Positions 12,204-31,500 of a DNA stretch of 32,000 nt are shown here, in pieces. Source of the DNA: Nostoc punctiforme PCC 73102 (lineage in GTDB: Bacteria; Cyanobacteriota; Cyanobacteriia; Cyanobacteriales; Nostocaceae); NCBI RefSeq assembly GCF_000020025.1, contig NC_010631.1, positions 120,001 to 152,000 of the forward strand, given 5' to 3'. The position numbers were made by a program, and so were the translations under genes. Under the pieces are notes generated by a model. The model was not told the DNA's origin and did no database searches. It worked only from the letters and a program-made list of their open reading frames with translations. The first letter of the stretch is position 1; each line of letters starts with the position of its first letter.

Positions 12204-12295
12204 GAGACATCACCAATTTAACTGTTATGTAGTTTCCAGCTTACCATCTGTATTTATTGGCTTTTGCCCATTTTGCAACTTGCACTGTGTATCTA

Positions 12296-12326: not shown

Positions 12327-12367
12327 CTCTCTTTAAACTCCCTGCATTACTCCTGACTCTAAAATAT

Positions 12368-15580: not shown

Positions 15581-15620
15581 GTTTTTAAAGTTATCTCGTA
15601 ACCTGAAAAGTGCTGTACTA

Positions 15621-15651
15621 TTTTGCATAACCTCACACAACCCAGAAATAC
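15621..15651 (+). promoter_or_regulatory. Shared promoter-like motif, copy 4 (upstream of the orthocaspase gene)
   Basis: ttttgcataacct-cacacaacc-cagaaatac. It ends 46 nt before the ATG at 15698. Confidence 0.5.
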
Positions 15652-15697
15652 AATCCTTTAAAGCGATTTGTGCCAATAAATAATAAATAAAATCATA

Positions 15698-17989
15698 ATG
15701 TCTAACATCAAACGCCGTCATTTTCTCCAATTTTCTGCTTCCACTCTCGCAATGTTAGGCTTGAGCCAGTTCGACATCATGCAACAAGCCAACAGCGTAG
15801 GTAAAGTCCTCGCTCAAAGTACAGGCCGCAAACTAGCGCTACTAGTGGGTATTAATGATTATCCTGCAAGCAATGGTTTAGATCCTCTCAAAGGTTGTGA
15901 GAATGATGTCAAATTGCAGGAATACTTACTAATTCACCGCTTTGGCTTCAAACAAGAGGATATTCGCATTTTGCTTAACCAACAAGCCACCCGTCAAGGC
16001 ATCCTCACAGCTTTTGAAAACCATCTAATTGCTCAAGCCAAGCGTGGGGATGTGGTATTATTCCACTACTCTGGACACGGTTCCCAGGTACAAGACCCCG
16101 ATCGCGATTCACCGGATGGACTCAACAGCACGCTTGTTCCTATAGATAGCCCTTTACCAACAGGATTTCCAGCCTTCGGCGGTGCAGTAAAAGATATCAT
16201 GGGACATACGCTATTTTTACTCATGTCTGCGTTAAAAACAGATAACGTCACCTTTGTGCTTGACAGCTGTTTTTCTGGTGGTGGTACGCGGGGAAATCTG
16301 CGGGTGCGATCGCGTTCTGGCGGTGAAAAATTGCAACCTAGTCAAGAAGAATTAGACTATCAGCGTCAATGGCTAAATAAATTGGGGCTTTCACAACAAG
16401 AATTCATTCAAAAACGCCGTCAAAACGTTGCTAAAGGAGTCGTTATCACCAGCGCCAAACGCGATCAATACGCCGCCGATGTTCCTTTTTCGGGTTTCCA
16501 TGCAGGGGCGTTTACCTACTCGCTAACTCAGTATCTTTGGCAGCAAACTGGCAATGAATCTGTCAACAGAGCGATCGCTAATATTGGTCGCAGTACGAAA
16601 GAATTAGCTAGCGAAAATGGTAACGATCAAGACCCAGAATTTGAGTCGAACCTCAGCGAAGAAAATGCCAACACACCTATCTATTTCATCCCTGTCCAGG
16701 CTATCCCAGCTGAGGCTGTAGTCACGCAAGTAACAGAGAACCAAGCACAGTTATGGCTGGGTGGAATAGATTCGCAAAGCTTAGAAGCTTTCAACAGTAA
16801 CTCTGTATTCTCAATAGTGGATGGTCTGGGTAATGAAATCGGACAGGTGCAACTACAATCTCGTCAAGGATTAGTCGGCAGAGGTACGCTGAAATACACA
16901 ACCTCCAAGGGAAAATTACACCCAGGAAATTTATTGCAAGAACGCATCCGCATCATTCCTAGAAATGCAACTTTAAAAATTGGTATTGATGAATCTTTAG
17001 ACAACAAAACTGCCCAGCAGGCAATACAAGCGATGAAAGCACTCAAGCGCGTCGAACCCAAATCTTTAACAAAAGAAGAATTACAATATATCTTTGGGCA
17101 GATGACAAAGACCAAACATCAAGAGTTGCAGAAAAAAGGAGTATCCAAGCTGCCAGTAGTGGGTAGTTTTGGTTTATTTTTACCAAGTCAAGACCAAATT
17201 ATTCCTGCGTCTTTTGGTGCAGCTAGCGAACCCATAACTGAAGCAGTAAAGCGTTTACAACCAAAATTCAAGTCGCTGTTAGCTGCGAGAGTGATCAAAC
17301 AGATTCTGGGAAATACAAATTCATCACGCCTCAACGTCACAGTTTCTATGAATATTGCTGGTAGCAATGAGCTTTTGGCTGAAACTTTCCCGATTCGCGG
17401 TGTAGCTAAAAAACCTCAACAGCCAAATTCCTCAACACCAGTTTCGTCTATTAAGTTTTCTGATGCTGGGTTACGTCAACTACCTGTGGACACCCAGATT
17501 GCTTTCCAAATTAAAAATAATGAGTCTCAACCACTTTACGTCAGTATTTTAGTGATTGATGCCGAAGGCGAAATGACAATTATTTTTCCTAATAAATGGT
17601 CAGACTCAGAAAATGCTGCTTTGGTAGAGGCAAAACAAACACAGTTAATCCCTCAAGCTGATGATGAATTTACACTTACCATAGTTACGCCCTTGGGAGT
17701 TTCAGAAGCATTAATCATTGCCAGTACCACCCCGCTAAAAACTGCTCTCCAAGCATTACAAACAATTGCTAGTAGGTCAACAGACACAAAAAGTCGAAAT
17801 GTTCCTCTCCCTGTTACTAATGAACTGTTAGATGTCACCAATAATTTACTAGATGACTTAGATGCAGGTACTCGTAGCGGCAATAGCGTCAATAACATAC
17901 AATTACCATCGAGCGATCGCGGTGTTGATACTACAAAATTAGCTGCAATGGCGATCGCTTTTGAGGTAATTGCATCATCCAGCAGCTAA
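15698..17989 (+). CDS. Orthocaspase / peptidase C14-like protease with twin-arginine (Tat) signal and a C-terminal DUF4384-like domain
   Basis: The N-terminus KRRHFLQFSASTLAMLGL matches the Tat pattern RR.FL. The caspase fold is indicated by LALLVGINDY, HYSGHG (His codon 16076..16078) and LDSCFSGG (Cys codon 16268..16270). The C-terminal block ...IAFQIKNNESQPLYVSILVIDAEGEMTIIFPN resembles DUF4384. Confidence 0.88.
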   Translation: MSNIKRRHFLQFSASTLAMLGLSQFDIMQQANSVGKVLAQSTGRKLALLVGINDYPASNGLDPLKGCENDVKLQEYLLIHRFGFKQEDIRILLNQQATRQGILTAFENHLIAQAKRGDVVLFHYSGHGSQVQDPDRDSPDGLNSTLVPIDSPLPTGFPAFGGAVKDIMGHTLFLLMSALKTDNVTFVLDSCFSGGGTRGNLRVRSRSGGEKLQPSQEELDYQRQWLNKLGLSQQEFIQKRRQNVAKGVVITSAKRDQYAADVPFSGFHAGAFTYSLTQYLWQQTGNESVNRAIANIGRSTKELASENGNDQDPEFESNLSEENANTPIYFIPVQAIPAEAVVTQVTENQAQLWLGGIDSQSLEAFNSNSVFSIVDGLGNEIGQVQLQSRQGLVGRGTLKYTTSKGKLHPGNLLQERIRIIPRNATLKIGIDESLDNKTAQQAIQAMKALKRVEPKSLTKEELQYIFGQMTKTKHQELQKKGVSKLPVVGSFGLFLPSQDQIIPASFGAASEPITEAVKRLQPKFKSLLAARVIKQILGNTNSSRLNVTVSMNIAGSNELLAETFPIRGVAKKPQQPNSSTPVSSIKFSDAGLRQLPVDTQIAFQIKNNESQPLYVSILVIDAEGEMTIIFPNKWSDSENAALVEAKQTQLIPQADDEFTLTIVTPLGVSEALIIASTTPLKTALQALQTIASRSTDTKSRNVPLPVTNELLDVTNNLLDDLDAGTRSGNSVNNIQLPSSDRGVDTTKLAAMAIAFEVIASSSS

Positions 17990-18341
17990 CTCTTGTATGT
18001 TTGGCGTGGATAAATTTGTGATTTTAAGAAGATTTTGGACAGGTTGTCCAAGTTTACCTTCCAAAAACGTCCAAAAAATAACATAAAGGAAAGCTAAATA
18101 AACAACATATTTATAAAAATGTAATTTACGCCTGATGTGAATTAAAAACATCTCTCATACCATAAGGGTTGCTAGATTCGCTCCAAATCATTATTTTGGG
18201 ACTAACTACGAAATTACAAGGGTTTCAAGACTTAATTTACATTAAACGTAATTTATTTAATTACACTAATCTGGTGGCTGGTGTTTATCCTTTCAATCAG
18301 GATCTAAAAGTAGTAAACGTCGATTAGGAGAACCGACAAGC

Positions 18342-19550
18342 GTGGCAAGAAACTGGAAGTGTGATGGTCAGCCCAAAAATGGCAAAATCTACTTAAATCA
18401 AAATCCTACTGGCAACCACGAACCCTATGAAAATTACGGCTTAACCTGTGTAATATGTAATTTGCCAAAAGAGGCAATGGACAATAACCGTCAATTGCCA
18501 AAATGGGTCAAACCTGCTGCTATAACTGGTGGTGCTGTTTTAACTGTCCTTATTGCTGCCTCAATATTTATAGATAAACCTTGTCCAACAGGTCAGCAAA
18601 AAATCAATAGTATTTGTTTGGCACTTTCTCCGCCTGAGAAAGAAACTCCTACCAAGCCAGTCTCTGATCCTCCCGTTAATATCTACCACACTTTAGCTGA
18701 AGTGCCTAACGTTCCCAACGGAATCATTAGATACGGCGGTTCTACAAGCTTTGCGCCGCTAAGGACTTCAGCAATAGTAGCGCTGATTATGCAAGGTCAT
18801 CCGGGATTTAAATTAGTCTACACTTCGCCACCGCCAGGAACCCAGGCTGGGTCTGGTAGCGGGATCAAGATGCTGATAGAAGGTCAACTAAATTTTTCCC
18901 AGTCTTCGCGGCCCTTAAGAGACGAAGAGTATGAAAGCGCAAAAACACGCAATTTCACTCTGGAACAGCAACCTATTGCCATTGACGGAATTGCTTTTTA
19001 CGTTCATCGTGATTTGGCTATCCCAGGTTTAACGGTATCTCAGATTAAGGATATATACACTGGGAGAATCACGAACTGGAAGCAAGTGGGTGGCCCCGCT
19101 ATTGAAATTACGCCTTTGAGCCGTGACCCTAATGATGGTGGTACTCCTGAATACTTTCAAGAAAAAGTGTTGGCGAAGGAACCATTTGCTTCATCTGTAA
19201 AACCTTATGTAATAGACACTACAACTGCTATCCGAAAGGTAGCTCAAACTCCTGGCGGGATTAGTTATGCCACTGCTTCAGAAGTTTGCCCCCAAACTTC
19301 AATTAAGCCTTTGTCAATTGCAAAACAGGCTAATCAGGGTTTTGTACCTGCTTGCATCGAAAAGCTCGTGAATAAAAATGATTTTGCGAAAGACATCTAC
19401 CCTCTGACTAGACGACTGTTTGTTGTGATTAAACGCGAACGCGATCGCACGCTGGATGAGCAGGCTGGTGTAGCTTATGTCAACTTACTTTTAAGTGATG
19501 AAGGTCAAAAATTAGTAGACCAAGCTGGTCTAGTGCCAATTCGCAACTGA
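18342..19550 (+). CDS. PstS-like (type 2 periplasmic binding protein) domain protein with a Cys-containing N-terminal tail and a single TM anchor
   Basis: GTG start 10 nt after AGGAGA (18326..18331). The TM segment is AAITGGAVLTVLIAASIFI. PstS-family blocks are IRYGGSTSFAPL, FSQSSRPLRDEE, IAIDGIAFYVH and LTVSQIKDIYTGRITNWKQVGG. No pstCAB genes are adjacent. Confidence 0.8.
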   Translation: MARNWKCDGQPKNGKIYLNQNPTGNHEPYENYGLTCVICNLPKEAMDNNRQLPKWVKPAAITGGAVLTVLIAASIFIDKPCPTGQQKINSICLALSPPEKETPTKPVSDPPVNIYHTLAEVPNVPNGIIRYGGSTSFAPLRTSAIVALIMQGHPGFKLVYTSPPPGTQAGSGSGIKMLIEGQLNFSQSSRPLRDEEYESAKTRNFTLEQQPIAIDGIAFYVHRDLAIPGLTVSQIKDIYTGRITNWKQVGGPAIEITPLSRDPNDGGTPEYFQEKVLAKEPFASSVKPYVIDTTTAIRKVAQTPGGISYATASEVCPQTSIKPLSIAKQANQGFVPACIEKLVNKNDFAKDIYPLTRRLFVVIKRERDRTLDEQAGVAYVNLLLSDEGQKLVDQAGLVPIRN

Positions 19551-19578
19551 AATAAATAATAACTCCTTAAAATCCCAG

Positions 19579-20475
19579 ATGAGTAAATTTCGTCGCAGTT
19601 TCTGGCTATATCCTTTATTTCAGATTCCGTTAATCGTGTTTGGAGTTTGTTTAGTTGCGACTGTTTTGTGTTCACTTTTAGGGTTGGGTAGACCTAGTGT
19701 AGCAGTAGCGATCGCTCTGGATATGAGCAACAGCACCTACGAAGGTAAATCATTCAACGCACCTGATACTGTGATGGCTCAAGAAGTGGCGGCGGTGCGA
19801 TCGTATATTGAGCAAAACTCCCAGCAATTAAAATCTCCTAACAATATCCAAATTTTTGGGTTTGGCGATCGAGTCATTCCCTTAACTAATTCCTTCACAT
19901 CAGATAGACAAAAGTTAGAAGCTGAGTTGAATTTAGCTCTAGCAAACCCTAATTTGTCATCTCAGATTGGTACTGAAACAAATCTCAGTCAATCCATTGA
20001 TCAAGGTACAAAACTTCTCAGTAATATTCAAGATCGTTGCCGTGAATTATTGCTCGTCACTGATGGAGTCGCTGAGGTGATACCATCAGTTTTGACTCAG
20101 GCAGTAGCTCAAAAAGTCAAAATCAATGCTGTGGTGGTAGGAGCAAATGCTCCCCAAATCAAGTCAGCTACCGACATCACCAACGGAATTTATCTATCCG
20201 GTGAATCGAACAATCTGCAAATATTTTTTAAAGATATATTTTTTACTAGCTTTAATAGCAATGTCAAATGGGTTTATTTCTGGCGAGGTTGTACCTGGAT
20301 TGCTTTGATGTGGCTAATTATCTTGCCTTTAGATAAATGGGTTTTTCAAGGGTTAATTAACTTACCAATGAACCTTAGTGGTCAGTTAGCTTTAGGCAAT
20401 GCTTTATTTTGGACTGTTGTTACTCCCCTAATTCTTTGGCAATTATCTGGCTTACCTTTTTTCTCAAATTGTTGA
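19579..20475 (+). CDS. Membrane protein with von Willebrand factor A (vWA) domain
   Basis: N-terminal TM after KFRR. The MIDAS motif DMSNS is at 19720..19734, followed by GTETNL and LLVTDG. Two or three C-terminal hydrophobic helices follow. It starts 28 bp after the preceding gene. Confidence 0.8.
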   Translation: MSKFRRSFWLYPLFQIPLIVFGVCLVATVLCSLLGLGRPSVAVAIALDMSNSTYEGKSFNAPDTVMAQEVAAVRSYIEQNSQQLKSPNNIQIFGFGDRVIPLTNSFTSDRQKLEAELNLALANPNLSSQIGTETNLSQSIDQGTKLLSNIQDRCRELLLVTDGVAEVIPSVLTQAVAQKVKINAVVVGANAPQIKSATDITNGIYLSGESNNLQIFFKDIFFTSFNSNVKWVYFWRGCTWIALMWLIILPLDKWVFQGLINLPMNLSGQLALGNALFWTVVTPLILWQLSGLPFFSNC

Positions 20476-20570
20476 GGCAGAAAGCAAAAGTTTTGAGTTA
20501 GCCATTAACAAATAATCAAAGGTAAATAAAGCTTCATTTGTTGAAGTTAAAAAATTAAAAAGAGAAAATT

Positions 20571-23500
20571 ATGGCAGCAGTTGAAGAAAAAAGTATGGTT
20601 CCCACGGTGTTGGTGGGTGTGGGTGGTACAGGAACAGAAGTCTTGTCACGGGTAAGAAGATTAATAGAAGAAGCCTATGGCAGTTTGAATAATTTTCCCA
20701 TTATTAGTTTTTTTAGTATTGACACAGATAAAGATTATAAAGTTAGTAATCCAGAGGTAACAGGATCGCCATTAAAGGATCATGAAAAACATTGGGCAAG
20801 TGTCAGTGGTAGAGAAGTCAACGACATTATGTCCAATATGGAAAAGTATCCTTGGATTGAGTCTTGGTTTCCTAGAGAATTAGAGCGCAATATTGGAGCA
20901 TTGGAAGCTGGTGCAGGTCAAATTCGTGCCTGTGGTCGCTTTGCCTTTTTTTATAACTATCACAAGATTAGACAACGGTTTTTTGAAGCGTGCGATCGCG
21001 TCAAAGGTCACGAAAGTTTGATGTTAGAGAAGTACGACATCAGAGTTAGTAGTGGTGGGTTGAATGTTTTCGTCGTTGGCTCAATTTCTGGTGGGACTGG
21101 CAGTGGTATGTTAATTGACATCGGCTACTGCTTACGTAACTGGCTGAAAGGTCAGGGAAGCCCTTTAATTACAGCAATTATCCCAATGCCTAATGCTTTT
21201 GCCAGCATTAATGTAGGCGATCGCGTTCTCGCTAATGGCTACGCTGCTCTGATGGAATTGAGTTACTTTTCTGACTACAGAACTGAGTATATATCTCAAT
21301 TTAGCGCTGGTTTAGTGGATGAGGTTCGCAATAAATTACCTCCCTTTGACTTTACCTATTTAGTTGGCACCAAGAATGGCGAAAGTGAGTTTAATCTCGA
21401 TCAAATTCGAGAAATGATTGCTCAAAACGTTTTTTTGGATCTTACCTCTGATTTTGCTCCACACAAACGCTCTATTCGAGACAACATTAAAGGAGCTTGG
21501 GCGCAGGCCGATCCAGGTGGTAGAGGCTATCCCAAAAACTTCATGAGCTTTGGTCTTTCCACAATTGAAATTCCTATCGCTCAGATTCACAATTCGCTAT
21601 CCAATCGGTTGAGTATGGATTTAGTAAATTGGTGGCTGAATGAGTCGGTGTCACTCCCACCTAATGTTTTGGATTTAATCCAAAAAGATATTCTTAAGGG
21701 AATGCGACTGACAGAAACCGAATTGATTGCAGACCTCTCTTCGGCAGCAGATAAATCTTATATCTCAGAAGTATCTGGTTGGATTAATAGTATCCGTAAT
21801 GAAATCGCTAGCGATAATAAATTGCAATGTACCCATCAAGGTGTCAATATGATTGGTACAGAGCGAGGCAAAATTTTGAGATTCCTGGATGATTATCTCA
21901 TCCCCAAAGTTGATGAATATCGTGCCAATCACTTGCGAGAATTAAGCGCCGATGAACGAACACATGGTGACTTTCTCCAAAAAATGTACGATAACCGGGA
22001 TCGCATTATCCAACAAGGCAGACAAGCAATTGAGGCAGAGTTTTACAAGATTATGCGCGATCGCAATCTGGGCCCCAAATTTGCTGATGCTTTTATTACT
22101 AACGTCCGTCAGCTATTTGCCAATGCTTCAGAAAAGTTCCGCCGTGAATCAGAAAAAGTCTGGCAACCTAACGAAATTAATCGGCAGCAGCAGTATGAAG
22201 CCGCACTGCAAGATATTAATCAATTTAAAAACTTGTTTGGTCTAACTAAACAAGCCCAAATGGAAAAGTATTGCGAGGAAGCGCTTACAGGTTTAGAAAG
22301 TAGCTTTATTGCAATCATTCAACACAAAAGTCGCACTTTGTCTCTACAGGTGATTGAGCGAATTTTAGAGCATCTGGATCGTATGGAGCAGCGATTAGCG
22401 CGGTTTAATCAAAAGCTGCGACAACTACGCGATGACTTTAAACAAAAAGCTGACAAAGAAGCAGATAGTGCTGATGCTTTGAAAATTAACGGGTTTAAGC
22501 TTTATAACCGCGAAGAACTTAATCTACTTTATCAGGACATGATTGAGCAATTAGCGGGAGCCATTCAAGGTAGCAAAAGCCGCTATGAAATCGGACTAAA
22601 CCAGATTTGCACCACAATGTCGGAAGATATTTTGCGAGATGCTAGCCCTTTGTGGAAACAGACTCGCACTGCCGGGGAAGTGATGCAACTCTTTGATATT
22701 ACTCAACTACAAGAGGTGAATTACGAGGATTTTAAAGAAATAGTTGCCGTCAAAACTCAGTTAGTAGTGAAAAAATCTCCTCAAGAGAGCCGATTAAACC
22801 AAGATTTAGCAGCGTGCGATCGCCTTTTCAAAAGCTTGCAAAACGATCCAGAGGCAATTCGCAGTAACATCCGCATTGCTTATCAAAGATCCCAACCGTT
22901 AATCTTACTATCCCAGGCAGTTCTCTCAGGTGCAGATGCCGGGTTTACTCCCGCCTTAAATACCAAAGTTGCAATCGTGGGAGGTCGCAACAGCAGCGAT
23001 CCCACTGCGATTAAACTAATCCCTTATTTACAAGAAAGAGTGGGAAATGCCGATTCTATCACCCCTCTGGGACAACAAGAACAGCATCGAATTGTGTTTG
23101 TCCAAGAAAAAGGCGGTTTTTCCCTGCGCTGTATAGATGGTATTAGAGAGTTGCGGCAATCTTATCAAGACTGGAAAGGACAATCTATTGAAGCCAAGCG
23201 ATCGCAACTCAGAGGTGAAACCAAAGACCTCCCTGTTCCCGTGCATATTCAAAAAGAACCTCCTTTCTGGGATGTGTTTCCCGAAAACCCCGAAGTTTTT
23301 AAACTAGTAGTGCAAGCTAGAGCATTAGGTGTTTTGCGGCTAGAAGAAAATCGCAACACCGAAGAAAAGGTGATTCGCTACACCCGCGAAACTGTAATCG
23401 GCTCAGAGAATGTAGAAATTGCTTCTAGTTGGGAAGAAGCGGTGCAAGTATTAGAGGTGCTGGCGTGTCGCCCTGACAAAGAAGCAATTGGGCGTCAAGT

Positions 23501-23897
23501 GTCGGCAAAACTAGCCGATGCTGACCAAGCCCAAGACAAACTAGACTTGTACGACCAGTTCATAAACTATTTGAAGCAGCGAGAAGCAGAACTAGAAAAA
23601 ATTGGGGGTAGCGATAGCCCAGATTACAAACGCGAAGCCACAATTATTAAAGATTTAATCACTTCTGAGAACCTGCAACTAAATAATAAAAGCAAACCCC
23701 CAGTTATTCAGCTTGTAATTTCTCCTGAGAAGCCGCTAGTTGATCTTATTGAGGAGCCTCACATATCAAATATTTCCCCTGTTGAGCCTCCTTTTATGGC
23801 AGGTGCAAATGTTTTTTGTACCGAGTGTGGTGAGCAAAACCCGGCCCGGTCTAAATTTTGCTACAACTGCGGGACTCGATTAGTTAAACTTAATTGA
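20571..23897 (+). CDS. Tubulin/FtsZ-superfamily-like GTPase (Tubulin_2-type) with long helical extension and C-terminal zinc ribbon
   Basis: The T1-like loop GVGGTGT is at 20616..20636. The tubulin signature GGTGSG is at 21090..21107. The remaining roughly 750 aa are rich in charged, coiled-coil-like sequence. The C-terminus has CTEC-x10-CYNC (23818..23871). An alternative start at the ATG at 20595 is possible. Confidence 0.75.
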   Translation: MAAVEEKSMVPTVLVGVGGTGTEVLSRVRRLIEEAYGSLNNFPIISFFSIDTDKDYKVSNPEVTGSPLKDHEKHWASVSGREVNDIMSNMEKYPWIESWFPRELERNIGALEAGAGQIRACGRFAFFYNYHKIRQRFFEACDRVKGHESLMLEKYDIRVSSGGLNVFVVGSISGGTGSGMLIDIGYCLRNWLKGQGSPLITAIIPMPNAFASINVGDRVLANGYAALMELSYFSDYRTEYISQFSAGLVDEVRNKLPPFDFTYLVGTKNGESEFNLDQIREMIAQNVFLDLTSDFAPHKRSIRDNIKGAWAQADPGGRGYPKNFMSFGLSTIEIPIAQIHNSLSNRLSMDLVNWWLNESVSLPPNVLDLIQKDILKGMRLTETELIADLSSAADKSYISEVSGWINSIRNEIASDNKLQCTHQGVNMIGTERGKILRFLDDYLIPKVDEYRANHLRELSADERTHGDFLQKMYDNRDRIIQQGRQAIEAEFYKIMRDRNLGPKFADAFITNVRQLFANASEKFRRESEKVWQPNEINRQQQYEAALQDINQFKNLFGLTKQAQMEKYCEEALTGLESSFIAIIQHKSRTLSLQVIERILEHLDRMEQRLARFNQKLRQLRDDFKQKADKEADSADALKINGFKLYNREELNLLYQDMIEQLAGAIQGSKSRYEIGLNQICTTMSEDILRDASPLWKQTRTAGEVMQLFDITQLQEVNYEDFKEIVAVKTQLVVKKSPQESRLNQDLAACDRLFKSLQNDPEAIRSNIRIAYQRSQPLILLSQAVLSGADAGFTPALNTKVAIVGGRNSSDPTAIKLIPYLQERVGNADSITPLGQQEQHRIVFVQEKGGFSLRCIDGIRELRQSYQDWKGQSIEAKRSQLRGETKDLPVPVHIQKEPPFWDVFPENPEVFKLVVQARALGVLRLEENRNTEEKVIRYTRETVIGSENVEIASSWEEAVQVLEVLACRPDKEAIGRQVSAKLADADQAQDKLDLYDQFINYLKQREAELEKIGGSDSPDYKREATIIKDLITSENLQLNNKSKPPVIQLVISPEKPLVDLIEEPHISNISPVEPPFMAGANVFCTECGEQNPARSKFCYNCGTRLVKLN

Positions 23898-23952
23898 TTT
23901 AGCAGGGCGAACTTGAATTTACAGTTTTGGTTAGAGTGTTGTCAGTGCCTTG

Positions 23953-23970
23953 ATAGCATGGTGCTATTTT
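23953..23970 (+). terminator. Weak hairpin plus T-run downstream of the tubulin-like gene
   Basis: ATAGCA-tgg-TGCTAT followed by TTT. The stem is short and AT-rich, so this is only a candidate. Confidence 0.25.
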
Positions 23971-24152
23971 CCTTACGGGGGGACAAAAAGGGCTAGGACG
24001 CAGATGGAATAAGCCTCATAGCCCTCTCTCCTTGCTGATAGTACTTACGCTTATTAGGATTTAGCATCAATAATTCGGCGACTAATTCATAGGAATTTTC
24101 CATGAAATTGATCCAATTGTGTCCATAAAGACCAATATAAAACAATACGGGT

Positions 24153-25558
24153 TCAGTTAAAGCTAAAAAGCTGATTATTAATGTGAAATTTCGGAGCTTG
24201 TACTTGTTTTCCAGTACTTCTGTGTTTAGGCTTTTTAGAAGAAAACTTTGATACAGGTTTTTTCACAACCCTGGGGTTAGTACGGTGAACTCGTTTCGGT
24301 AACAACGTATCCAGATCTCTACGGTTAACCAATCGAAAAAAGGGGGAATTCTTCTGGTGGTAAATGTTGAAATTTAGGAATAGCACGACAATGACTCGTA
24401 ATGTTCCTGTAAAACTTAGACGCAACGGAGACAGAAGCATTAGTTGCTGCTTGAAATATTAACACTCAAACTGACCAATGTCCCAACAACCAACCATACA
24501 CTTCTTGTACAACTTCTCGTAGTTTTTGGGAACGGACATGGGTTTTTCGACCCAAAAGATGGATTTTCAATTCATCACTGGTATTTTCTACTTCCCAACG
24601 TTGATGATATTCCTCAGCTAACAACTCTGCCGGGAATTTTTCAATGTCTAACAGGCTAGTAATCAAGCGATATATCACTTGTTTTTCTGGGTTATCAGGA
24701 TGCTCAATTATGTACTCGATAACTCTTACTGATATTGGCTGACAATCCTTTTTTCGTAACTTTCCAGATGGGTAAATCGATGACAGATAAGAACCATCTG
24801 GCAACGATTTTTCTGTAAAAAATTTAACATTGGCAGGAATTCTCCCTAAATAGTCACAACCCTTAGATACTGTTGCGTGTACCATTGCATACGAATGCAA
24901 TCCCCTATCCCACATCAACAACATTCCTGATGTTACCGAGCGTAATAATTTTAATGCCCGCACTCGTTCTCCGATGCGGTATGGACACTCTTATTGCATC
25001 AAATATGATGTGTGTTCCTGCTTCTACCAATATGACTAATCTGACTTTGGGAAAAGCTGCTTGTGTGCCTGGACGACTACCAGGACGACCAAAAACTCTC
25101 GCATTTTCATGACTATCTGGAACATCAAAACAAGTACCGTCAATCACCACAATTCTCAGCCCATTTAGAAATGCTCCTATCGTTTCACCAGTCGCCATTG
25201 GTTGTACTAACTGGTGAAATAATTGGCTCATCACTCCTGCTCCCAATCTTGCCGAGCTTGAGTAATTGCTGACTTACAAGGTACTCGCCAGTATTTACCT
25301 ACCTTCACCCATCCCTCAGAAAGACCATCAATCAAGTTTTTAAGTATATCCCACATTGAGTCTTTTGACCATAGACTCATTGCAATTACCAGACTTACCA
25401 CTAATTGCGCTGGTAGCGGGAAGCGAAGCTATGCCGCAGGCTTATCGCTTGCGCTCCTCTTCAGTTTGGGTATTAGTGATCGCTTCTTCGATTGCAGTTG
25501 CTGGAATCGCCATCTCGATTGCTTTAAGCACATCACCACTTCGTATCTCAGGAGACAT
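24153..25558 (-). pseudogene. IS4-family DDE transposase broken by frameshifts and in-frame stops
   Basis: Pieces lie in different frames. They are MSPEIRSGD...EERKR*, LPAQLVVSLVIAMSLW..., RLGAGVMSQ..VIDGTCFDVPDS.., MRALKLL..LLMWDRG..YHQRWEVENTSDELK (the Y-2-R-3-E-6-K signature), HWSV*(TGA)VLIFQAA.. and SPLRLSFTG..NPRVVKK. Confidence 0.85.
25409..25450. repeat. Short GC-rich dispersed repeat, copy inside the IS transposase gene
   Basis: gctggtagcgggaagcgaagctatgccgcaggcttatcgctt resembles 28391..28433. It supplies stop codons in the transposase reading frames. Confidence 0.6.
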
Positions 25559-25720: not shown

Positions 25721-25777
25721 ATACCTGTGAAGAGCAAGAAAACCTCTGCAATATTTAATATTTTAGGAGATACAACA

Positions 25778-26284
25778 ATGAAAGGTTTGAAACTAGTAGC
25801 AGCTATTTTAGTATTTGGAACATTGACTTTTACACCCAAAGCTGAAGCGAAAAGCTTGTTCAACACTCAACAAGTCATAGCACAAGTTCCTGACTCGCAA
25901 ACTGAAAATCCGAAGGATACCGAAACATACTTTAAACGGGGTTTTAAGCGGATAGAATCGAAAGATTATCGAGGAGCAATTGAAGATTTTAACCAAATCC
26001 TGAAGATTGAACCTAACAATGCTTATGCCTACGTTGGTAGAGGATTAGGTAATTTTTGTCTGGATGAATATCAAGCAGCAAAGACAGATTTTGACAAAGC
26101 TATAGAAATTACTCCCGATATTCCCTATGCCTATTATTTCCGAGGTTTGACAAACTTTGCTTTAAAAGACAAACCAGCAGCGATCGCTGATTTACAGAAA
26201 TCATTCACGCTGTTTAAACAAGAAGGGAATCAGGAATTCGCCCAAAAAGCCACCGACGCACTTCAGAAGATACAAGAGAGTTAA
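25778..26284 (+). CDS. Small secreted TPR-repeat protein
   Basis: The ATG at 25778 lies 7 nt after AGGAGA (25765..25770). The signal peptide is MKGLKLVAAILVFGTLTFTPKAEA, followed by QQVIAQV. Three TPR units of the type AY..RG......Y..A..DF..A are present. The track's GTG start at 25727 is less likely. Confidence 0.85.
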   Translation: MKGLKLVAAILVFGTLTFTPKAEAKSLFNTQQVIAQVPDSQTENPKDTETYFKRGFKRIESKDYRGAIEDFNQILKIEPNNAYAYVGRGLGNFCLDEYQAAKTDFDKAIEITPDIPYAYYFRGLTNFALKDKPAAIADLQKSFTLFKQEGNQEFAQKATDALQKIQES

Positions 26285-26317
26285 ATTCCATTGCATAATT
26301 CTGATGACATATCCAGC

Positions 26318-26358
26318 AACCGGATTTTGCAATTTTTTGTCTGTAAAATCCGGTTTTT
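26318..26358 (+). terminator. Rho-independent terminator candidate for the small TPR gene
   Basis: An 11-bp perfect stem AACCGGATTTT (26318..26328) / AAAATCCGGTT (26345..26355) with a 16-nt loop, followed by TTT. Confidence 0.5.
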
Positions 26359-26377
26359 ATGGAAATATCTGCCCAAT

Positions 26378-26408
26378 TTTCGCATATCCTTTAAAAGCTG
26401 AGAAATAT
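26378..26408 (+). promoter_or_regulatory. Shared promoter-like motif, copy 6 (upstream of the decayed TPR gene)
   Basis: tttcgcatatcct-ttaaaagct-gagaaatat. Spacing is the same, but TTGCAT reads TCGCAT. It ends 34 nt before the ATG at 26443. Confidence 0.45.
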
Positions 26409-26442
26409 ACACCACTGAGTCAGTCTGCTGGAGTTTTTGCTA

Positions 26443-27464
26443 ATGGGCTACCGTCTGAAGTACCTCATCCTTGCTACTGTAGGGCTTTCCTTTGCCCCCT
26501 TGTCTCCTCTTTCTCCCGTCTCTTTGTCTCCCTTGGTGGTGCAGGCGCAAACGACACAACAGCCTAGTCCTGAAGAAACAAACAGGGAGAAGGAACAACC
26601 CTCAACAATATTGGCTTTGTTTACAATAATCAAGGACAGTATGCCAAAGCTTTGGTAGCTTATCAGCAAGCTTTAGCTATTCGCAAACAAATCAATCAAA
26701 AAGCATTGGTAGGAGAAAGCCTCAATAACATTGGCTCTGTTTACGAAAATTTGGGACAGTACGATCAAGCATTGAAGTTTTATCAGCAAGCTTTAACTAT
26801 TCTCCAACAAATTGGCAGCAAGGTAGGTGAAGGAAAAACTCTGAACAATATTGGCTTTGTTTACAATAATCAAGGACAGTATGCCAAAGCTTTAAATTAC
26901 TATGTACAAGCTTTAACTATTCTTCAAAAAATTGGTGACAAAGCAGGTGGAGGTAAAACTCTCGATAATATCGGTGTGGTTTATGACAACCAGAGAGATT
27001 ATGCCAAAGCATTCGGATTTCATCAGCAAGCTTTAGCCATTTTCAAACAAATTGGTGATACAGCAGGTGAAGGCAAAACTCTTAATAATATTGGTGGGGT
27101 TTATTATAATCAGAAAGAGTATGCCAAAGCTTTGGAATTTTATCAGGAAGCTTTAGTTATTGTCAAACAAGTCGGTGATAAAGCGTCGGAAGGAACATTT
27201 CTCAATAATATTGGTTCTGCTTACGATAAATTAGGACAATATGAAAATGCTGAAAAAACGCTATTTACTGCAATTGAGATTTGGGAGTCTTTGCGAAAGA
27301 ACGAATTAACTGATGCTCAAAAAATTTCACTCTTTGAAATACAAGCCGAAACCTACCGTTTTCTGCAAAGGAGTCTGATTGCCCAGAATAAAATTAATTC
27401 TGCCTTAGAAGTGAGCGATCGCCTCATTCCCCAAACCAAACATCGTAGGCGCAGCCTGTCGTAG
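26443..27464 (+). pseudogene. Frameshifted, 3'-truncated paralogue of the TPR-CHAT gene at 1..1707 (leader + TPR only, CHAT lost)
   Basis: The ATG at 26443 follows GGAG. The leader MGYRLKYLILATVGLSFA...VVQAQT is in frame 1. The TPR frame opens only after the TGA at 26571 (track ORF 26652..27464). Nucleotide homology to 1..534 stops at the HIP1 site 27415..27422, inside ...ALEVSDR, where the paralogue continues into CHAT. Confidence 0.65.
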
Positions 27465-27476
27465 ACATTGCTGTTT

Positions 27477-28064
27477 CTAAGCACTAACAACCGTAGGAAA
27501 AATCCGGCTCAAGTCTAATAAGACATCTTCAAATCCAGGAATTGCCACTGACTGATGGGGCAAAGATATCTGCTTGCTGAGATAATTATATTCACCTTGA
27601 GCAGTTTGATAAGGTTGGCTGTAACGCTCAAGTTGGCGAAAATTTAAGTTGACAATCCAATAATTAGAAATTCCGGCTTCTGCGTAGACTTCTAACTTTG
27701 TTGTTTGGTCGTAATCGAGGGTTGAATCGGAAATTTCAATCACTAAAAAAATATCTTCAGGATAGGGATGATGGGGAAGATAGTCAGTCTCATTTCCTCG
27801 TGCGATCGCCACATCTGGTTCAGGTTCACTATCTGATGGTAGTATGATTGGCTCTTGACAACGCACAACAGCGCCATCGCCCAGCAATCGATCCAGTTGT
27901 CTACAAAGCCGAGTTGTGCAAAATGTATGAGGTGTGCCTTTGGCTACCATCTGAATGAGTTCTCCGCGAATCAATTCAATGCGATCATTCTCCTTTAGAA
28001 ATTCCAGTTCAATCAGTCGATGATATTCATCAATAGTAAATCGCTTTGGTGTGACAACGTTCAT
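27477..28064 (-). CDS. Uma2-family (DUF820) restriction-endonuclease-fold protein
   Basis: The 195-aa ORF MNVVTPKRFTIDEYHRLIE...ELIRGELI.M...EPEPDVAI...LVIEISDST...D...K...YA..GI..YWIV is typical of the family that is expanded in cyanobacteria. Confidence 0.88.
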   Translation of the reverse strand: MNVVTPKRFTIDEYHRLIELEFLKENDRIELIRGELIQMVAKGTPHTFCTTRLCRQLDRLLGDGAVVRCQEPIILPSDSEPEPDVAIARGNETDYLPHHPYPEDIFLVIEISDSTLDYDQTTKLEVYAEAGISNYWIVNLNFRQLERYSQPYQTAQGEYNYLSKQISLPHQSVAIPGFEDVLLDLSRIFPTVVSA

Positions 28065-28140
28065 GAGACATCACCGATTTAACTGTGGTATGTACTTTCT
28101 AGCTTACCATCTGTATTTATTGGCTTTTGCCCATCTTGCG

Positions 28141-28299
28141 ATCTGACTTTTCACGGTAAGTTCTCAACTAACCAAAATACGTAGTTTTTTCTACAGGATT
28201 ATTCGCAATAGTCTTAAACTAATGACAATAATCAACGGGAAAATAGAGGCTGGAAGAAAGCGAAAAATGACCTTTTCCACATACCGTGAAAAGTCAGAT
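28141..28299. repeat. MITE-like element bounded by an 18-bp perfect inverted repeat
   Basis: ATCTGACTTTTCACGGTA (28141..28158) and TACCGTGAAAAGTCAGAT (28282..28299) flank 123 bp without an ORF. It lies in a roughly 300-bp segment that is absent from the homologous intergenic region at 12280..12296. Confidence 0.55.
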
Positions 28300-28390
28300 A
28301 TTGTGATCGCTAAATTTTCTTATAAAACATGTGAGACATCTTGATTTAGAATACACTCACAATAATAAACCGCCCTTGATCACAAACCAA

Positions 28391-28433
28391 GCTGTTGGCG
28401 GTAAGCGTAGCCATGCCGTCAGGCTTATCGCTT
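28391..28433. repeat. Short GC-rich dispersed repeat, second copy
   Basis: gctgttggcggtaagcgtagccatgccgtcaggcttatcgctt is similar to 25409..25450. Confidence 0.6.
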
Positions 28434-28459
28434 TTGTTCACTCTTGCACAGCGGCTCGA

Positions 28460-28490
28460 ATTTGCATATCCTTCAGCAGGTGAGAGATAT
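28460..28490 (+). promoter_or_regulatory. Shared promoter-like motif, copy 3 (upstream of TPR-CHAT 28537)
   Basis: atttgcatatcct-tcagcaggt-gagagatat. It ends 46 nt before the ATG at 28537. Confidence 0.55.
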
Positions 28491-28536
28491 ATTATATCTC
28501 CTTAAACTCGCTGCATTACTGCTGACTCTAAAATCT

Positions 28537-31500
28537 ATGGGCGATCGCAAACTTAGTTTAACCGTATTGATCACTCTCATCTTGACTGTTTCACAACCCA
28601 TCGCCAATTTGCCTCCACTATTCCAAGCGCCGCAGGTATTGGCGCAAACGCCAGCAGAACGGAAAGTAGAAGCAGACCGATTGTCGCAGCAAGGTCTTGA
28701 GCAGTTTAAAATTAGCCAATTTGAAGCCGCGTTACAGTCTTGGCAACAAGCACTTATTATTTATCGAGAAATCAAAGACCGTAAAGGAGAGGGAAAAACT
28801 CTAGGCCGTCTGGGAGTTATTTACGACTACCGGGGAGACTATACCAAAGCCATTCAGTACCAGCAGCAGAGTTTGGCGATCGCCAAGGAAACTAAAGACC
28901 GTTTAGGGGAAGGAAAAGCTCTGGTCAATCTGGGAAATGTTTACCATTCCCTGGGAGACTACGCTAAAGCCATTGAGTATCACTCCTCAAGTTTTACGAT
29001 CGCTCGTGAAATCAATGACCGTTCAATTGAGGGTGCTGCTCTGGGCAATCTGGGACTTGCTTACGATGCAAAAGGAGACTACGCCAAAGCCATTGAGTAC
29101 CACTCTTTAAGTTTGGCGATCGCTCGTGAAATCAAAGACCGTAAAGGAGAGGGAGAATCTCTGGGCAATTTGGGAATTGCTTACGATGCCCTGGGAGATT
29201 ACGCTAAAGCCATTGAGTACCAGCAGCAGAGATTGGCGATCGCTCGTGAAATCAAAGACCGTAAAGGGGAGGGAGAATCTCTGGGAAATCTGGGAAGTGC
29301 TTACTATTCGCTGGGAGACTACGCCAAAGCGATTAAGTACCAGCAGCAGAGATTGGCGATCGCTCGTGAAATTAAAGACCGCCGAGCACAGAAACAATCT
29401 CTGGGCAATCTAGGAGTTGCTTACAATGCTCTGGGAGACTACGCCAAAGCGATTAAGTACCAGGAGCAGAGTTTGGCGATCGCTCGTGAAATCAAAGATC
29501 GTAATGGCGAGGGTAATGCTCTGGACAATCTGGGACTTGCTTACTATTCGCTGGGAGACTACGCCAAAGCCATTGAATACTACTCCTCAAGTTTGGCAAT
29601 TGCACGAGAAATCAAAGACCGTAATGGCGAGGGTACTGTTCTGGGGAATCTGGGACTTGCTTACTTTTTGTTGGGAGACGACCTGAAGGCGATTGAGTAC
29701 CAGGAGCAGAGTTTGGCAATTGCACGAGAAATCAAAGACCGTAATGGTGAGAGTCAATCTCTGGGCAATCTAGGACTTGCTTACGATGATCTGGGAGACT
29801 ACGCCAAAGCGATTGAGTACTACCAGCAAAGTTTAGCGATCGCTCGTGAAATCAAAAACCGTTTAGGCGAGGGACAATCTCTGGGCAATCTAGGAAATGT
29901 TTACTATTCGCTGGGAGACTACGCCAAAGCGATTGAGTACTACCAGCAAAGATTGGCGCTCGCCCGCCAAATCAAAAACCGTTTAGGCGAGGGGAATGGT
30001 CTGAGCAATCTAGGAAATGCTTACGGTTCGCTGGGAGACTACGCCAAAGCGATTGAGTACCAGCAGCAAAGTTTAGCGATCGCACGAGAAATCAAAGACC
30101 GTTTAGGTGAGGGGAATGTTCTGGGGAATCTAGGATTTACTTTAAACAAATCTGGCAATCTTGCAGAAGCAGAAAAAAACCTCCGGGCTGGGATAGAGGT
30201 CTGGGAATCTGTCAGGAGACAGTTGGGTAAAAATGATAGCTACAAAGTCTCAATTTTTGAACGACAATCTCGCACTTACCGCATACTACAAAGAGTCCTA
30301 ATTGCTCAGAATAAAACCAAAGAAGCGTTAGAAATTTCTGAACGGGGACGTTCTAGGGCATTTGTGGAGTTATTAACTTCACGGTTGTCTAGCGAAAGTG
30401 CAGGTCAAACTGTAGAACGTCCTGTTGATAAACCGACAATATCGCTGTTGCAACAAATCGCCAAACAACAAAATGCCACCCTCGTTGAATATTCAACTAT
30501 TGGTGATGAATTCAAGATTCAAGGTAAACAAGAACAAAAAGAATCAGAACTCTACATTTGGGTAATCAAACCCACAGGTGAAGTTACCTTCCGCTCTTCT
30601 GACCTCAAACCCCTGTGGCAAAAAGAAAATACAACTCTTGACAAGCTTGTTACTACCAGTCGTAACTTCATTGGTGCAACAAGTACACCTTTTCGCGGTG
30701 GTATTATCCCCAGGGAAAATCCTAATAAACCCAAAGCCAAACAAAAATTTCAGCAACTCCATAAACTGCTGATTGAACCTATCGCTGACTTGCTTCCAAA
30801 ACAAGAAACTGAAAAAGTTATCTTCATTCCCCAAAGCAGCCTATTCCTCGTTCCCTTCGCCGCATTACAAGACGCAGACGGCAAATACCTGATTGAAAAA
30901 CACACCATCCTCACATCTCCATCAATTCAGGTTTTAGATTTAACCCACAAACAGAAACAACGGCTTGGAACAAAACCCATAGAAGGAAAAGATACGCTGA
31001 TTGTAGGTAATCCCACAATGCCTTTTCTCGCCCCAAAAATCGGCGATACTCCGCAACAATTAAAACCTTTACTTGGCGCAGAACTTGAAGCAGTTGCAAT
31101 TAGCAAGTTACTCAAAACCGAACCTCTCATCGGCAAGAAAGCCACAGAAGAAACTATAGTCAAGCGTTTACCCGAAGCGCGATTTGTTCATTTAGCAACA
31201 CATGGTTTATTTGATGATATCCAAGGATTAAATAGTGGCATTGCTTTGACTCCATCGGGTAAAGATGATGGTTTATTAACAGCCTCGGAAATCCTCGATC
31301 TGAAGCTAAATGCCGAATTAGTCGTTTTAAGCGCTTGCGACACCGGACGCGGACGCATTTCTGGGGATGGGGTAATTGGTTTATCTCGTTCGTTAATTAG
31401 TGCTGGTGTACCCAGTGTCTTAGTATCGCTGTGGTCGATTCCAGATGCGCCCACAGCCCTATTAATGACGGAATTTTATCAAAATCTGCAAAAAGGCTCC

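What the first reader, a model, noticed from the sequence alone, without database searches (positions are those of the whole stretch)
20571..23897. Atypical tubulin-superfamily protein: signature GGTGSG, no FtsZ-type C-terminal domain recognisable, huge helical tail, terminal zinc ribbon
Seen: GVGGTGT lies at aa 16-22 and SGGTGSG at aa 173-179. That is about 150 aa between the two glycine loops, which is closer to tubulin spacing than to FtsZ spacing. After roughly aa 340 the sequence is dominated by charged, heptad-like stretches, for example LERILEHLDRMEQRLARFNQKLRQLRDDFKQKADKEADS. The last 30 aa contain CTECGEQNPARSKFCYNCGTRL. Established: (S/A/G)GGTG(S/A/T)G is the tubulin/FtsZ GTP-binding signature. 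Inference: this may be a cytomotive or scaffold GTPase whose zinc ribbon could dock to a partner or to nucleic acid.
Basis: partly seen in the sequence, partly recalled or inferred. Interest (0 to 1): 0.7.

Follow-up and report, generated by a model that had tools for sequence, protein, structure and literature searches.

The report
Known FtsZ-like-1 tubulin-family GTPase gene
This gene encodes a real but highly divergent relative of tubulin and FtsZ; this very gene (Nostoc punctiforme Npun_AF098) was listed in the FtsZ-like-1 family in 2010, so it is a correct observation rather than a new discovery, although nobody has yet shown what the family does.

Summary
It is a full-length member of Pfam Tubulin_2 (PF13809, E=3e-115), which is the FtsZl1 family of Makarova & Koonin 2010. 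The window is N. punctiforme PCC 73102 plasmid pNPUN01. This exact gene (Npun_AF098) and its vWA neighbour (Npun_AF097) are in that paper's tables, and NCBI already names the protein "tubulin-like domain-containing protein".

- **Fold:** an AlphaFold model of aa 1-420 (pLDDT 86) matches only FtsZ, CetZ and tubulin structures.
- **Nucleotide loops:** a profile alignment to E. coli FtsZ covers loops T1-T5 and helix H5, then stops. No T7 loop or FtsZ/tubulin C-terminal domain is detectable.
- **The tail is more than a coiled coil:** it has one strong heptad segment (aa 584-641), further helices, a conserved alpha/beta domain (aa ~800-1035), a disordered linker and the zinc ribbon.
- **Zinc ribbon:** orthologues replace it with SHOCT, GYF_2 or a helical tail.
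- **Conserved partners:** a membrane vWA protein and a membrane-anchored periplasmic binding protein with a small cytoplasmic Cys/His module.

The most likely role is a GTP-regulated, membrane-tethered assembly. This is inferred, not shown. Novelty: already known. Function: untested.

The parts
20571..23897 (+). Gene for the 1108-aa FtsZl1/Tubulin_2 protein (Npun_AF098; ACC84978.1 / WP_012412998.1 / UniProt B2JAM4)
   Evidence: ORF. The exact sequence is found in the public collection under these accessions, on a 354,564-bp contig. The coordinates match the Makarova & Koonin table (140571..143897) with an offset of 120000.
20607..21626 (+). Tubulin_2 domain, aa 13-352. aa 13-233 form the FtsZ-like nucleotide-binding core (S1 to H5). 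aa 234-352 are a family-specific region with conserved N269, D290, N305, D314, G328 and P335.
   Evidence: Pfam E=3.4e-115. hhalign to E. coli FtsZ residues 14-156. AlphaFold model pLDDT 85.9. Foldseek top hits are CetZ2 4b45_A (E=4e-8), FtsZ and tubulins. Conservation across 77 distant homologues.
20616..20636 (+). T1 loop, GVGGTGT (aa 16-22)
   Evidence: G18, G19 and G21 are invariant in the diverse alignment.
21087..21107 (+). T4 signature, SGGTGSG (aa 173-179)
   Evidence: G174, G175, T176 and G177 are invariant.
21576..22940 (+). Mostly alpha-helical middle region (aa ~336-790) with long helices at aa 467-496, 501-552 and 559-633
   Evidence: DSSP on the full-length AlphaFold model; pLDDT is 80-94 for aa ~440-630 and low beyond aa 633.
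22320..22493 (+). The only strong canonical coiled-coil (heptad) segment, aa 584-641
   Evidence: Heptad-register score 0.86, against a 99.9th percentile of 0.64 in shuffles.
22968..23675 (+). Conserved C-terminal alpha/beta domain (aa ~800-1035) carrying family-wide conserved E846, F850, Y865 and H892
   Evidence: Secondary structure. Y865 is invariant and E846, F850 and H892 are >=90% conserved in 50 sequences down to 19% identity. No Pfam or PDB sequence match.
23682..23804 (+). Disordered, Pro-rich, poorly conserved linker (aa 1038-1078)
   Evidence: pLDDT <50. The consensus is all 'x' in the orthologue alignment.
23814..23882 (+). C-terminal zinc ribbon (aa 1082-1104; CxxC-x11-CxxC)
   Evidence: Pfam Zn_Ribbon_1 E=6.5e-7. 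Present in 90 of 137 full-length orthologues. SHOCT-like in 9; the other 38 include GYF_2 (Crocosphaera) and a ~70-aa helical tail.
19579..20475 (+). Upstream partner gene: 298-aa membrane vWA protein (Npun_AF097). N-terminal TM segment, MIDAS D48-x-S50-x-S52, and hydrophobic C-terminal segments.
   Evidence: Found upstream of the tubulin-like gene in 32 loci. Orthologues hit Pfam VWA_2. Named vWA by NCBI and COG2304 in PMC2875224. Net charge is +2.7 before TM1 and +0.1 after it, so the vWA domain is predicted to lie outside the cytoplasm.
18342..19550 (+). Second upstream partner: 402-aa protein (ACC84976.1; locus tag Npun_AF096 inferred by numbering) with a cytoplasmic C7...H26...C36xxC39 module, one TM segment (aa 59-77) and a periplasmic PstS-like PBP_like_2 domain
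   Evidence: Pfam PBP_like_2 E=2.9e-32. TM segment. The cluster is found next to the tubulin-like gene in 42 loci. The N-terminal module is conserved while the periplasmic domain switches between PBP_like_2 and Peripla_BP_6.

Best explanation
The gene encodes a member of the FtsZl1 (Pfam Tubulin_2) branch of the tubulin/FtsZ GTPase superfamily; that identity is shown. Proposed mechanism (inferred): the N-terminal domain binds GTP through intact T1-T5 loops. The coiled coil and helical region pair or bundle the molecules. GTP-dependent self-association builds an assembly on the cytoplasmic face of the membrane. The assembly is tethered to two co-encoded membrane proteins: a vWA protein whose MIDAS domain faces outward, and a periplasmic solute-binding protein with a small cytoplasmic Cys/His module. 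The envelope or ligand state could therefore control assembly. The disordered linker plus the exchangeable terminal module (zinc ribbon here) would act as a flexible docking hook, analogous to the FtsZ C-terminal linker and peptide. Because no T7 loop or FtsZ-type activation domain is detectable, GTP hydrolysis, if it occurs, must use family-specific residues. Candidates are D314 in the loop after the H7-like helices, or E846 in the C-terminal domain.
For: Identity: Pfam PF13809 E=3.4e-115. The exact protein is deposited as 'tubulin-like domain-containing protein'. The gene is listed as FtsZl1 in PMC2875224 Additional file 5. Fold and pocket: the N-domain model has pLDDT 85.9, and 212 PDB hits at E<=1e-3 are all FtsZ/CetZ/tubulin. 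hhalign pairs GVGGTG with GVGGGG, IDTD with NTD, GAGQIRACGR with GAGANPEVGR, GGTGSG with GGTGTG, and PMPNAF with KPFNFEG. These residues are invariant or near-invariant in homologues at 19-40% identity. Membrane coupling: the order PBP, vWA, tubulin-like is kept in 24 orthologous loci. A ~30%-identity cyanobacterial group keeps the PBP directly downstream instead. A ~26%-identity paralogue group has vWA, tubulin-like, a MotA-like membrane protein and an OmpA-like protein. The PBP keeps its cytoplasmic Cys/His module and TM segment while its periplasmic domain is swapped. Docking hook: the linker is disordered and the terminal module is exchangeable. Both published analyses place such systems at the membrane (PMC2875224; PMC7159879 section 29).
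Against: There are no experimental data on any FtsZl1 protein in the searchable literature. The elements that drive polymerisation-coupled hydrolysis in FtsZ/tubulin (T7, H8, the C-terminal domain) are not detectable, so polymerisation is an assumption. Thirteen orthologous loci with adequate upstream flank (Microcystis, Laspinema and others) have neither partner adjacent. The inter-domain geometry of the full-length model is unreliable (pTM 0.38). The membrane topologies rest on hydropathy and charge rules alone.
Confidence: 0.55

Rival explanations
1. It is a component of a membrane-proximal biological-conflict (immune or abortive) system of the kind Kaur, Burroughs, Iyer & Aravind (2020) describe. 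There, a tubulin-domain protein with a coiled coil and a TM-vWA protein form a threshold-controlled multimeric assembly that responds to invaders.
For: PMC7159879 section 29 describes tubulin-plus-coiled-coil proteins with TM-vWA proteins (vWA extracellular), zinc ribbons and GYF domains, enriched in multicellular prokaryotes. The same small modules (ZnR, GYF_2) appear here. The window is full of CHAT, caspase, subtilase, TPR and WD40 genes on a plasmid. Some orthologues have Uma2 or protein-kinase neighbours.
Against: The core of those systems, a GAP1-type P-loop GTPase with FNIII-repeat proteins, is absent from this neighbourhood and no counterpart was recognised among the recurrent neighbour clusters of related loci. 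The caspase, CHAT and subtilase neighbours are not conserved in any other locus. There is no PADLOC hit for the tubulin-like, vWA or PBP proteins. Orthologues are 54-96% identical and chromosomal across many cyanobacterial orders, which looks more like a housekeeping gene than a rapidly diversifying defence gene. No effector domain is linked.
Confidence: 0.2
2. It is a non-polymerising GTPase switch or mechanochemical enzyme that works like a dynamin-type protein: a GTPase head on a helical stalk that dimerises and remodels membrane, without forming tubulin-like protofilaments.
For: No T7 loop or C-terminal activation domain is detectable. The layout is a long antiparallel-looking helical region behind a GTPase head. 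There are weak Foldseek matches of the helical part to BDLP, MxA, Mgm1 and IniA (E 0.05-0.6, probability <=0.25). [quoted passage not shown]
Against: The dynamin-like matches are of low probability and typical of any long helical hairpin. The head is a tubulin fold, not a P-loop fold. Every characterised tubulin-superfamily member known to me polymerises (general knowledge).
Confidence: 0.2
3. It is a TubZ-like plasmid-segregation motor for pNPUN01, with the zinc ribbon binding DNA or a centromere adaptor.
For: In N. punctiforme the gene is on a 354-kb plasmid. TubZ is a plasmid-borne tubulin relative whose C-terminal tail engages its adaptor (PMC5322520, abstract only).
Against: Orthologues lie on long, chromosome-sized contigs or complete chromosomes (2.9-7.1 Mb). 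No TubR-like DNA-binding gene was seen next to it, and no tandem repeats occur in 17500-25500. The conserved partners are membrane proteins. The zinc ribbon is replaced by SHOCT or GYF_2 in orthologues.
Confidence: 0.03

Closest known systems
FtsZl1 family (Makarova & Koonin 2010, Biol Direct 5:33) = Pfam Tubulin_2 PF13809
   Same: Everything that defines the family matches: a divergent N-terminal FtsZ-like domain alignable to H5 only, inserts between T1 and T4, a ~1000-1100 aa length, a coiled coil, an uncharacterised C-terminal region and an adjacent vWA gene. This exact gene is in their table.
   Different: Nothing at family level. The cyanobacterial subgroup adds a membrane-anchored periplasmic binding protein as a third conserved partner, and an exchangeable terminal module. 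The PBP appears in their table for Arthrospira but is not discussed in the sections of that paper I read (Findings).
FtsZ (bacterial cell-division GTPase)
   Same: The Rossmann-like nucleotide-binding domain with T1-T5 loops and the GGTGSG signature. The layout of a flexible linker plus terminal docking element resembles the FtsZ C-terminal linker and peptide that bind membrane anchors.
   Different: No FtsZ_C domain and no recognisable T7 NxDxxD. About 800 extra residues. Not in a division gene cluster.
CetZ, tubulin and TubZ/PhuZ
   Same: These are the best structural matches to the N-domain model (CetZ2 4b45_A E=4e-8; gamma-tubulin; phage PhuZ).
   Different: Only 11-18% identity and TM-scores of 0.3-0.5. 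The match covers the nucleotide-binding half. There is no Tubulin_C domain and no TubR/centromere partner.
Tubulin-containing GAP1-N2 GTPase-centric conflict systems (Kaur et al. 2020, eLife 9:e52696)
   Same: A tubulin domain fused to a coiled coil or helical region; a TM-vWA protein with the vWA domain outside; ZnR and GYF modules; a membrane-proximal setting; multicellular hosts.
   Different: No GAP1 GTPase or FNIII-repeat protein here. Those systems are described from Firmicutes and Actinobacteria. Here the third component is a periplasmic binding protein.

Membership tests
FtsZl1 / Pfam Tubulin_2 (PF13809) | Profile match above the curated threshold over the whole domain | tested here: met
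   385.5 bits against a cut-off of 27; aa 13-352 cover profile positions 1-355 of 356.
FtsZl1 / Pfam Tubulin_2 (PF13809) | The FtsZ-like core is alignable through T1-T5 and H5 but not through T6-H7-T7, and there are family-specific inserts between T1 and T4 | tested here: met
   hhalign to E. coli FtsZ covers aa 13-233 against FtsZ 14-156 and stops at H5. Gaps in FtsZ lie opposite aa ~54-112 and ~141-163. This matches the description in PMC2875224.
FtsZl1 / Pfam Tubulin_2 (PF13809) | Coiled-coil region followed by a further C-terminal domain, with total length ~1000-1100 aa | tested here: met
   Heptad segment at aa 584-641. Helical region and alpha/beta domain. Relatives are mostly 1000-1200 aa. 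The C-terminal domain here is mixed alpha/beta rather than 'mostly alpha-helical'.
FtsZl1 / Pfam Tubulin_2 (PF13809) | Adjacent vWA-domain gene with an intact MIDAS motif | tested here: met
   19579..20475, with D48xS50xS52. Conserved upstream in 32 loci. Named vWA by NCBI.
FtsZl1 / Pfam Tubulin_2 (PF13809) | Listed by the authors who defined the family | tested here: met
   Npun_AF098, 1108 aa, 140571..143897, labelled FtsZl1 in Additional file 5 of PMC2875224.
Canonical FtsZ | FtsZ C-terminal domain (FtsZ_C) and a T7 loop with catalytic Asp (NxDxxD) | tested here: not met
   No Pfam FtsZ_C hit. No part of the full-length profile aligns to FtsZ residues 157-383. The loop after the H7-like helices has a conserved D314 but no NxDxxD motif.
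Tubulin proper (alpha/beta/gamma, BtubAB) | Pfam Tubulin (PF00091) and Tubulin_C above threshold | tested here: not met
   PF00091 is not reported for this protein at E<=0.01. Orthologues give only sub-threshold hits of 16-19 bits against a cut-off of 33.
Tubulin/FtsZ superfamily (fold level) | The two glycine loops and T2, T3 and T5 surround a nucleotide pocket in a tubulin-like fold | tested here: inconclusive
   The fold match is strong and the loop correspondence is clear.
Tubulin/FtsZ superfamily (function) | GTP binding and hydrolysis, and nucleotide-dependent polymerisation | not testable with these tools
   This needs biochemistry.
TubZ-type plasmid segregation system | Adjacent TubR-like DNA-binding adaptor and centromeric repeats | tested here: not met
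   The neighbours are membrane or periplasmic proteins. No tandem repeats occur in 17500-25500. Orthologues are chromosomal.
GAP1-N2 GTPase-centric conflict system with tubulin (Kaur et al. 2020) | GAP1-type P-loop GTPase and FNIII-repeat components linked to the tubulin gene | tested here: not met
   No such domains were found among the window's ORFs, and none was recognised among the recurrent neighbour clusters of 86 related loci, of which only some were scanned against Pfam.
GAP1-N2 GTPase-centric conflict system with tubulin (Kaur et al. 2020) | TM-anchored vWA protein with the vWA domain outside the cell | tested here: met
   Charge bias across TM1 predicts an N-in topology with the vWA domain outside. 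This is a prediction only.

The most novel reading that the evidence does not exclude
The cyanobacterial FtsZl1 protein is the cytoplasmic arm of a three-part trans-envelope module. A periplasmic solute-binding sensor, whose binding domain is swappable (PstS-like or LivJ-like) but whose cytoplasmic Cys/His finger is constant, and an outward-facing MIDAS-vWA protein would gate the assembly of a T7-less tubulin-superfamily GTPase. That GTPase would use a family-specific catalytic residue (D314 or the distal E846) instead of the canonical T7 acid. This would be a tubulin-family polymer used for ligand-controlled transmembrane signalling or envelope remodelling.
Probability: 0.15. Interest if true: 0.65.

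Novelty: already known. Interest (0 to 1): 0.3.

Why it matters
FtsZl1/Tubulin_2 is a large branch of the tubulin superfamily: more than 4600 clusters at 50% identity. It is also the most divergent branch, and I found no experimental work on it. It lacks the elements that couple polymerisation to GTP hydrolysis in FtsZ and tubulin. Showing whether and how it assembles would therefore test how general the tubulin mechanism is. The present gene adds nothing new to the catalogue. It does sit in a genetically tractable filamentous cyanobacterium, with a compact three-gene module that would make a good experimental entry point.

Tried and rejected
1. PDB sequence searches with the single protein and with a 50-sequence profile found no tubulin or FtsZ chain. 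They returned only coiled-coil noise such as spike HR1 and apolipoproteins, so sequence methods alone do not link this family to solved structures.
2. NCBIfam and PADLOC gave no hit for the tubulin-like protein.
3. The full-length AlphaFold model built from 42 close orthologues was mediocre (pLDDT 66, pTM 0.38). I used it for secondary structure only. A second model of aa 1-420, built from 107 diverse sequences, was good.
5. A megablast of 19000-24000 against PLSDB plasmids found nothing. The replicon was identified instead by exact protein look-up and by the coordinate match to the 2010 table.
6. I considered the idea that the caspase, CHAT and subtilase genes upstream form one system with the tubulin-like gene, and rejected it. 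None of them recurs next to any homologue.
7. I tested whether the terminal-module type co-varies with the PBP type. It does not.
8. Literature searches by locus tags and by keyword combinations found no experimental study.
Full report
**Observation.** The window contains a 3327-nt ORF at 20571..23897 on the + strand that encodes 1108 aa. The quoted charged stretch is present at aa 595-633, but its first residue was misread: it is I, not L. The features are far beyond chance. Pfam Tubulin_2 (PF13809) matches aa 13-352 end to end with E=3.4e-115 (385 bits, cut-off 27). Zn_Ribbon_1 (PF13240) matches aa 1082-1104 with E=6.5e-7.

**Identity of the sequence.** An exact-sequence look-up finds the protein as ACC84978.1 / WP_012412998.1 / UniProt B2JAM4. 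It is named "tubulin-like domain-containing protein [Nostoc punctiforme]" and lies on a 354,564-bp contig; that length and the Npun_A* locus tags identify plasmid pNPUN01 (my knowledge of the strain).
- Additional file 5 of Makarova & Koonin 2010 (PMC2875224) lists Npun_AF098 (1108 aa, 140571..143897) as "FtsZl1".
- It lists Npun_AF097 (298 aa, 139579..140475) as a vWA protein.
- Both are the window coordinates plus 120000.
- Pfam Tubulin_2 is the model that captures these FtsZ-like sequences (PMC9871819).

The finding is therefore correct but already published and already annotated.

**The N-terminal domain.**
- A profile of 107 homologues aligned to E. coli FtsZ with hhalign pairs aa 13-233 with FtsZ 14-156. 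The paired motifs are GVGGTG/GVGGGG (T1), IDTD/VNTD (T2), GAGQIRACGR/GAGANPEVGR (T3), GGTGSG/GGTGTG (T4), PMPNAF/KPFNFEG (T5), and helix H5 ending ELSYF/ELSKH.
- The alignment stops at H5, exactly as the 2010 paper reported for the family.
- These positions are invariant or nearly so in homologues down to 19% identity.
- The long T1-T4 spacing (~157 aa) is produced by insertions opposite gaps in FtsZ. It is not a sign of tubulin affinity.
- An AlphaFold model of aa 1-420 built on the diverse alignment is confident (pLDDT 85.9, pTM 0.77).
- Foldseek against the PDB returns 212 chains at E<=1e-3, and every listed one is FtsZ, CetZ or tubulin. The best is CetZ2 4b45_A at E=4e-8. The viral library returns phage FtsZ, tubulin and PhuZ.
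- TM-scores of 0.3-0.5 indicate that only about half of an FtsZ core superposes.

**The rest of the protein.** The "huge helical tail" is composite.
- The full-length model is weak overall (pLDDT 66) but confident for aa ~440-630. It shows long helices at aa 467-496, 501-552 and 559-633.
- A heptad-register test against shuffles finds one strong coiled-coil segment, aa 584-641.
- Residues ~800-1035 form a mixed alpha/beta domain. This domain is conserved across the whole family: Y865 is invariant, and E846, F850 and H892 are >=90% conserved in sequences at 19-40% identity. It has no Pfam or PDB sequence relative.
- Residues 1038-1078 are disordered, Pro-rich and unconserved.
- The zinc ribbon that follows is present in 90 of 137 full-length orthologues. 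The rest carry a SHOCT domain, a GYF_2 domain (Crocosphaera) or a ~70-aa helical tail.
- An exchangeable terminal module on a flexible tether argues for a docking role, and against a specific nucleic-acid-binding role.

**Family size and conservation.** A scan of 1.84 billion representative proteins finds 4616 clusters at E<=1e-3, and most relatives are 1000-1200 aa. Orthologues in many filamentous and unicellular cyanobacteria are 54-96% identical over the full length. They lie on long contigs of 2.9-7.1 Mb, presumably chromosomal.

**Genomic context.** I analysed the neighbourhoods of 86 related loci.
- The caspase, CHAT, subtilase and WD40 genes of this window never recur next to homologues.
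- Two genes do recur. The first is a ~300-aa vWA membrane protein immediately upstream (32 loci). Its MIDAS motif is D48xS50xS52, and the charge bias across its first TM segment predicts that the vWA domain lies outside the cytoplasm.
- The second, upstream of that, is a single-pass membrane protein (42 loci). Its periplasmic domain is either PstS-like PBP_like_2 (~400 aa, as here) or LivJ-like Peripla_BP_6 (~540 aa). Its cytoplasmic N-terminus keeps a C...H...CxxC module in both cases.
- In a ~30%-identity cyanobacterial group, the tubulin-like protein has no zinc ribbon. The PBP gene lies directly downstream and starts with a zinc ribbon that gives a weak, sub-threshold PF13240 match.
- In a ~26%-identity paralogue group (Anabaena, Dolichospermum, Nostoc), the operon is vWA, tubulin-like, a MotA-like membrane/coiled-coil protein and an OmpA/MotB-like protein. 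This is the arrangement described in 2010.
- In Microcoleus a Ser/Thr kinase follows the gene.
- Thirteen orthologous loci with adequate upstream flank have no partner adjacent.
- The terminal-module type does not co-vary with the PBP type.

**Mechanism.** Three things are shown: a tubulin-fold GTP-binding head with intact T1-T5 loops, a coiled-coil-containing helical region with a conserved C-terminal domain, and conserved linkage to envelope-spanning proteins. The rest is inferred. The proposal is GTP-regulated self-assembly on the inner face of the membrane. The assembly would be tethered to the vWA-PBP pair through the flexible linker and terminal module and/or the C-terminal domain, and might be controlled by a periplasmic ligand or cation.

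This agrees with both published readings in placing the system at the membrane. Makarova & Koonin 2010 proposed membrane remodelling. Kaur et al. 2020 proposed a regulated cytoskeleton-like assembly in conflict systems (PMC7159879 section 29). The conflict reading is weaker here because the GAP1 GTPase and FNIII core are absent, no effector is linked, and the gene is vertically conserved. A TubZ-like partition role is nearly excluded: orthologues are chromosomal, there is no adaptor or repeats, and the ribbon is swappable. A non-polymerising, dynamin-like mode cannot be excluded, because T7 and the activation domain are missing.

**Verdict.** The superfamily assignment is correct. The protein is a typical, not atypical, member of a family described in 2010 that includes this very gene. 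Its function remains experimentally unknown (no study found).

Three modest additions come from this analysis:
- the structural confirmation of the fold;
- the conserved TM-anchored binding protein with its constant cytoplasmic Cys/His module;
- the exchangeable terminal module on a disordered tether.

Interest is low to moderate.

Noticed in passing
window 18342-19550 (+): The PstS-like protein upstream is not an ordinary transporter component. It has a cytoplasmic N-terminal C7...H26...C36xxC39 module and a TM anchor. That module is conserved in homologues whose periplasmic domain is a different fold (Peripla_BP_6). The constant cytoplasmic part looks like the piece that talks to the tubulin-like protein.
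   Followed up: partly
L052-L063 (e.g. L060:6983-11618): In a ~30%-identity cyanobacterial group, the tubulin-like protein ends in an acidic helical tail (motif DGxIDLEEQxQLxxLQEELGL) instead of a zinc ribbon. The PBP gene directly downstream starts with a zinc ribbon that gives a weak, sub-threshold PF13240 match. The ribbon therefore sits on either partner in different lineages.
   Followed up: partly
L064-L086 (e.g. L064:5781-12866): Many Nostocales carry a second, ~26%-identical Tubulin_2 paralogue. Its four-gene operon encodes a vWA-TM protein with a beta-rich C-terminus, the tubulin-like protein (SHOCT-like tail), a 540-640-aa membrane/coiled-coil protein with a weak MotA_ExbB match, and a ~215-aa OmpA/MotB-like protein.
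   Followed up: partly
window 4-17989 and 25727-31602: The surrounding plasmid region is packed with predicted protease and scaffold genes. There are five CHAT-domain proteins: three with TPR arrays (4-1707, 12368-15580, 28444-31602), one CHAT-only (1756-3201), and a 2172-aa WD40-CHAT protein (3224-9742). There is also a subtilase (9884-12049) and a caspase-DUF4384 protein (15698-17989). None of these is conserved next to the tubulin-like gene elsewhere.
   Followed up: partly
window 24153-25246 (-): Overlapping short ORFs on the minus strand just downstream of the gene; one (24466-24963) has a partial DDE_Tnp_1 transposase match. They look like a decayed IS element. A Uma2-family endonuclease gene lies at 27477-28064 (-).
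   Followed up: no
L019:10650-12341 and related Microcoleus/Tychonema loci: In the Microcoleus-type loci, a Ser/Thr protein kinase gene (563 aa) follows the tubulin-like gene directly, followed in turn by several paralogous ~200-aa ORFs. This echoes the kinase association noted for FtsZl1 in 2010.
   Followed up: no
L045 (Crocosphaera watsonii WH 8501), L079, L081: In a few genomes the tubulin-like gene is split into two or three ORFs. These are possible frameshifts, insertions or pseudogenes.
   Followed up: no
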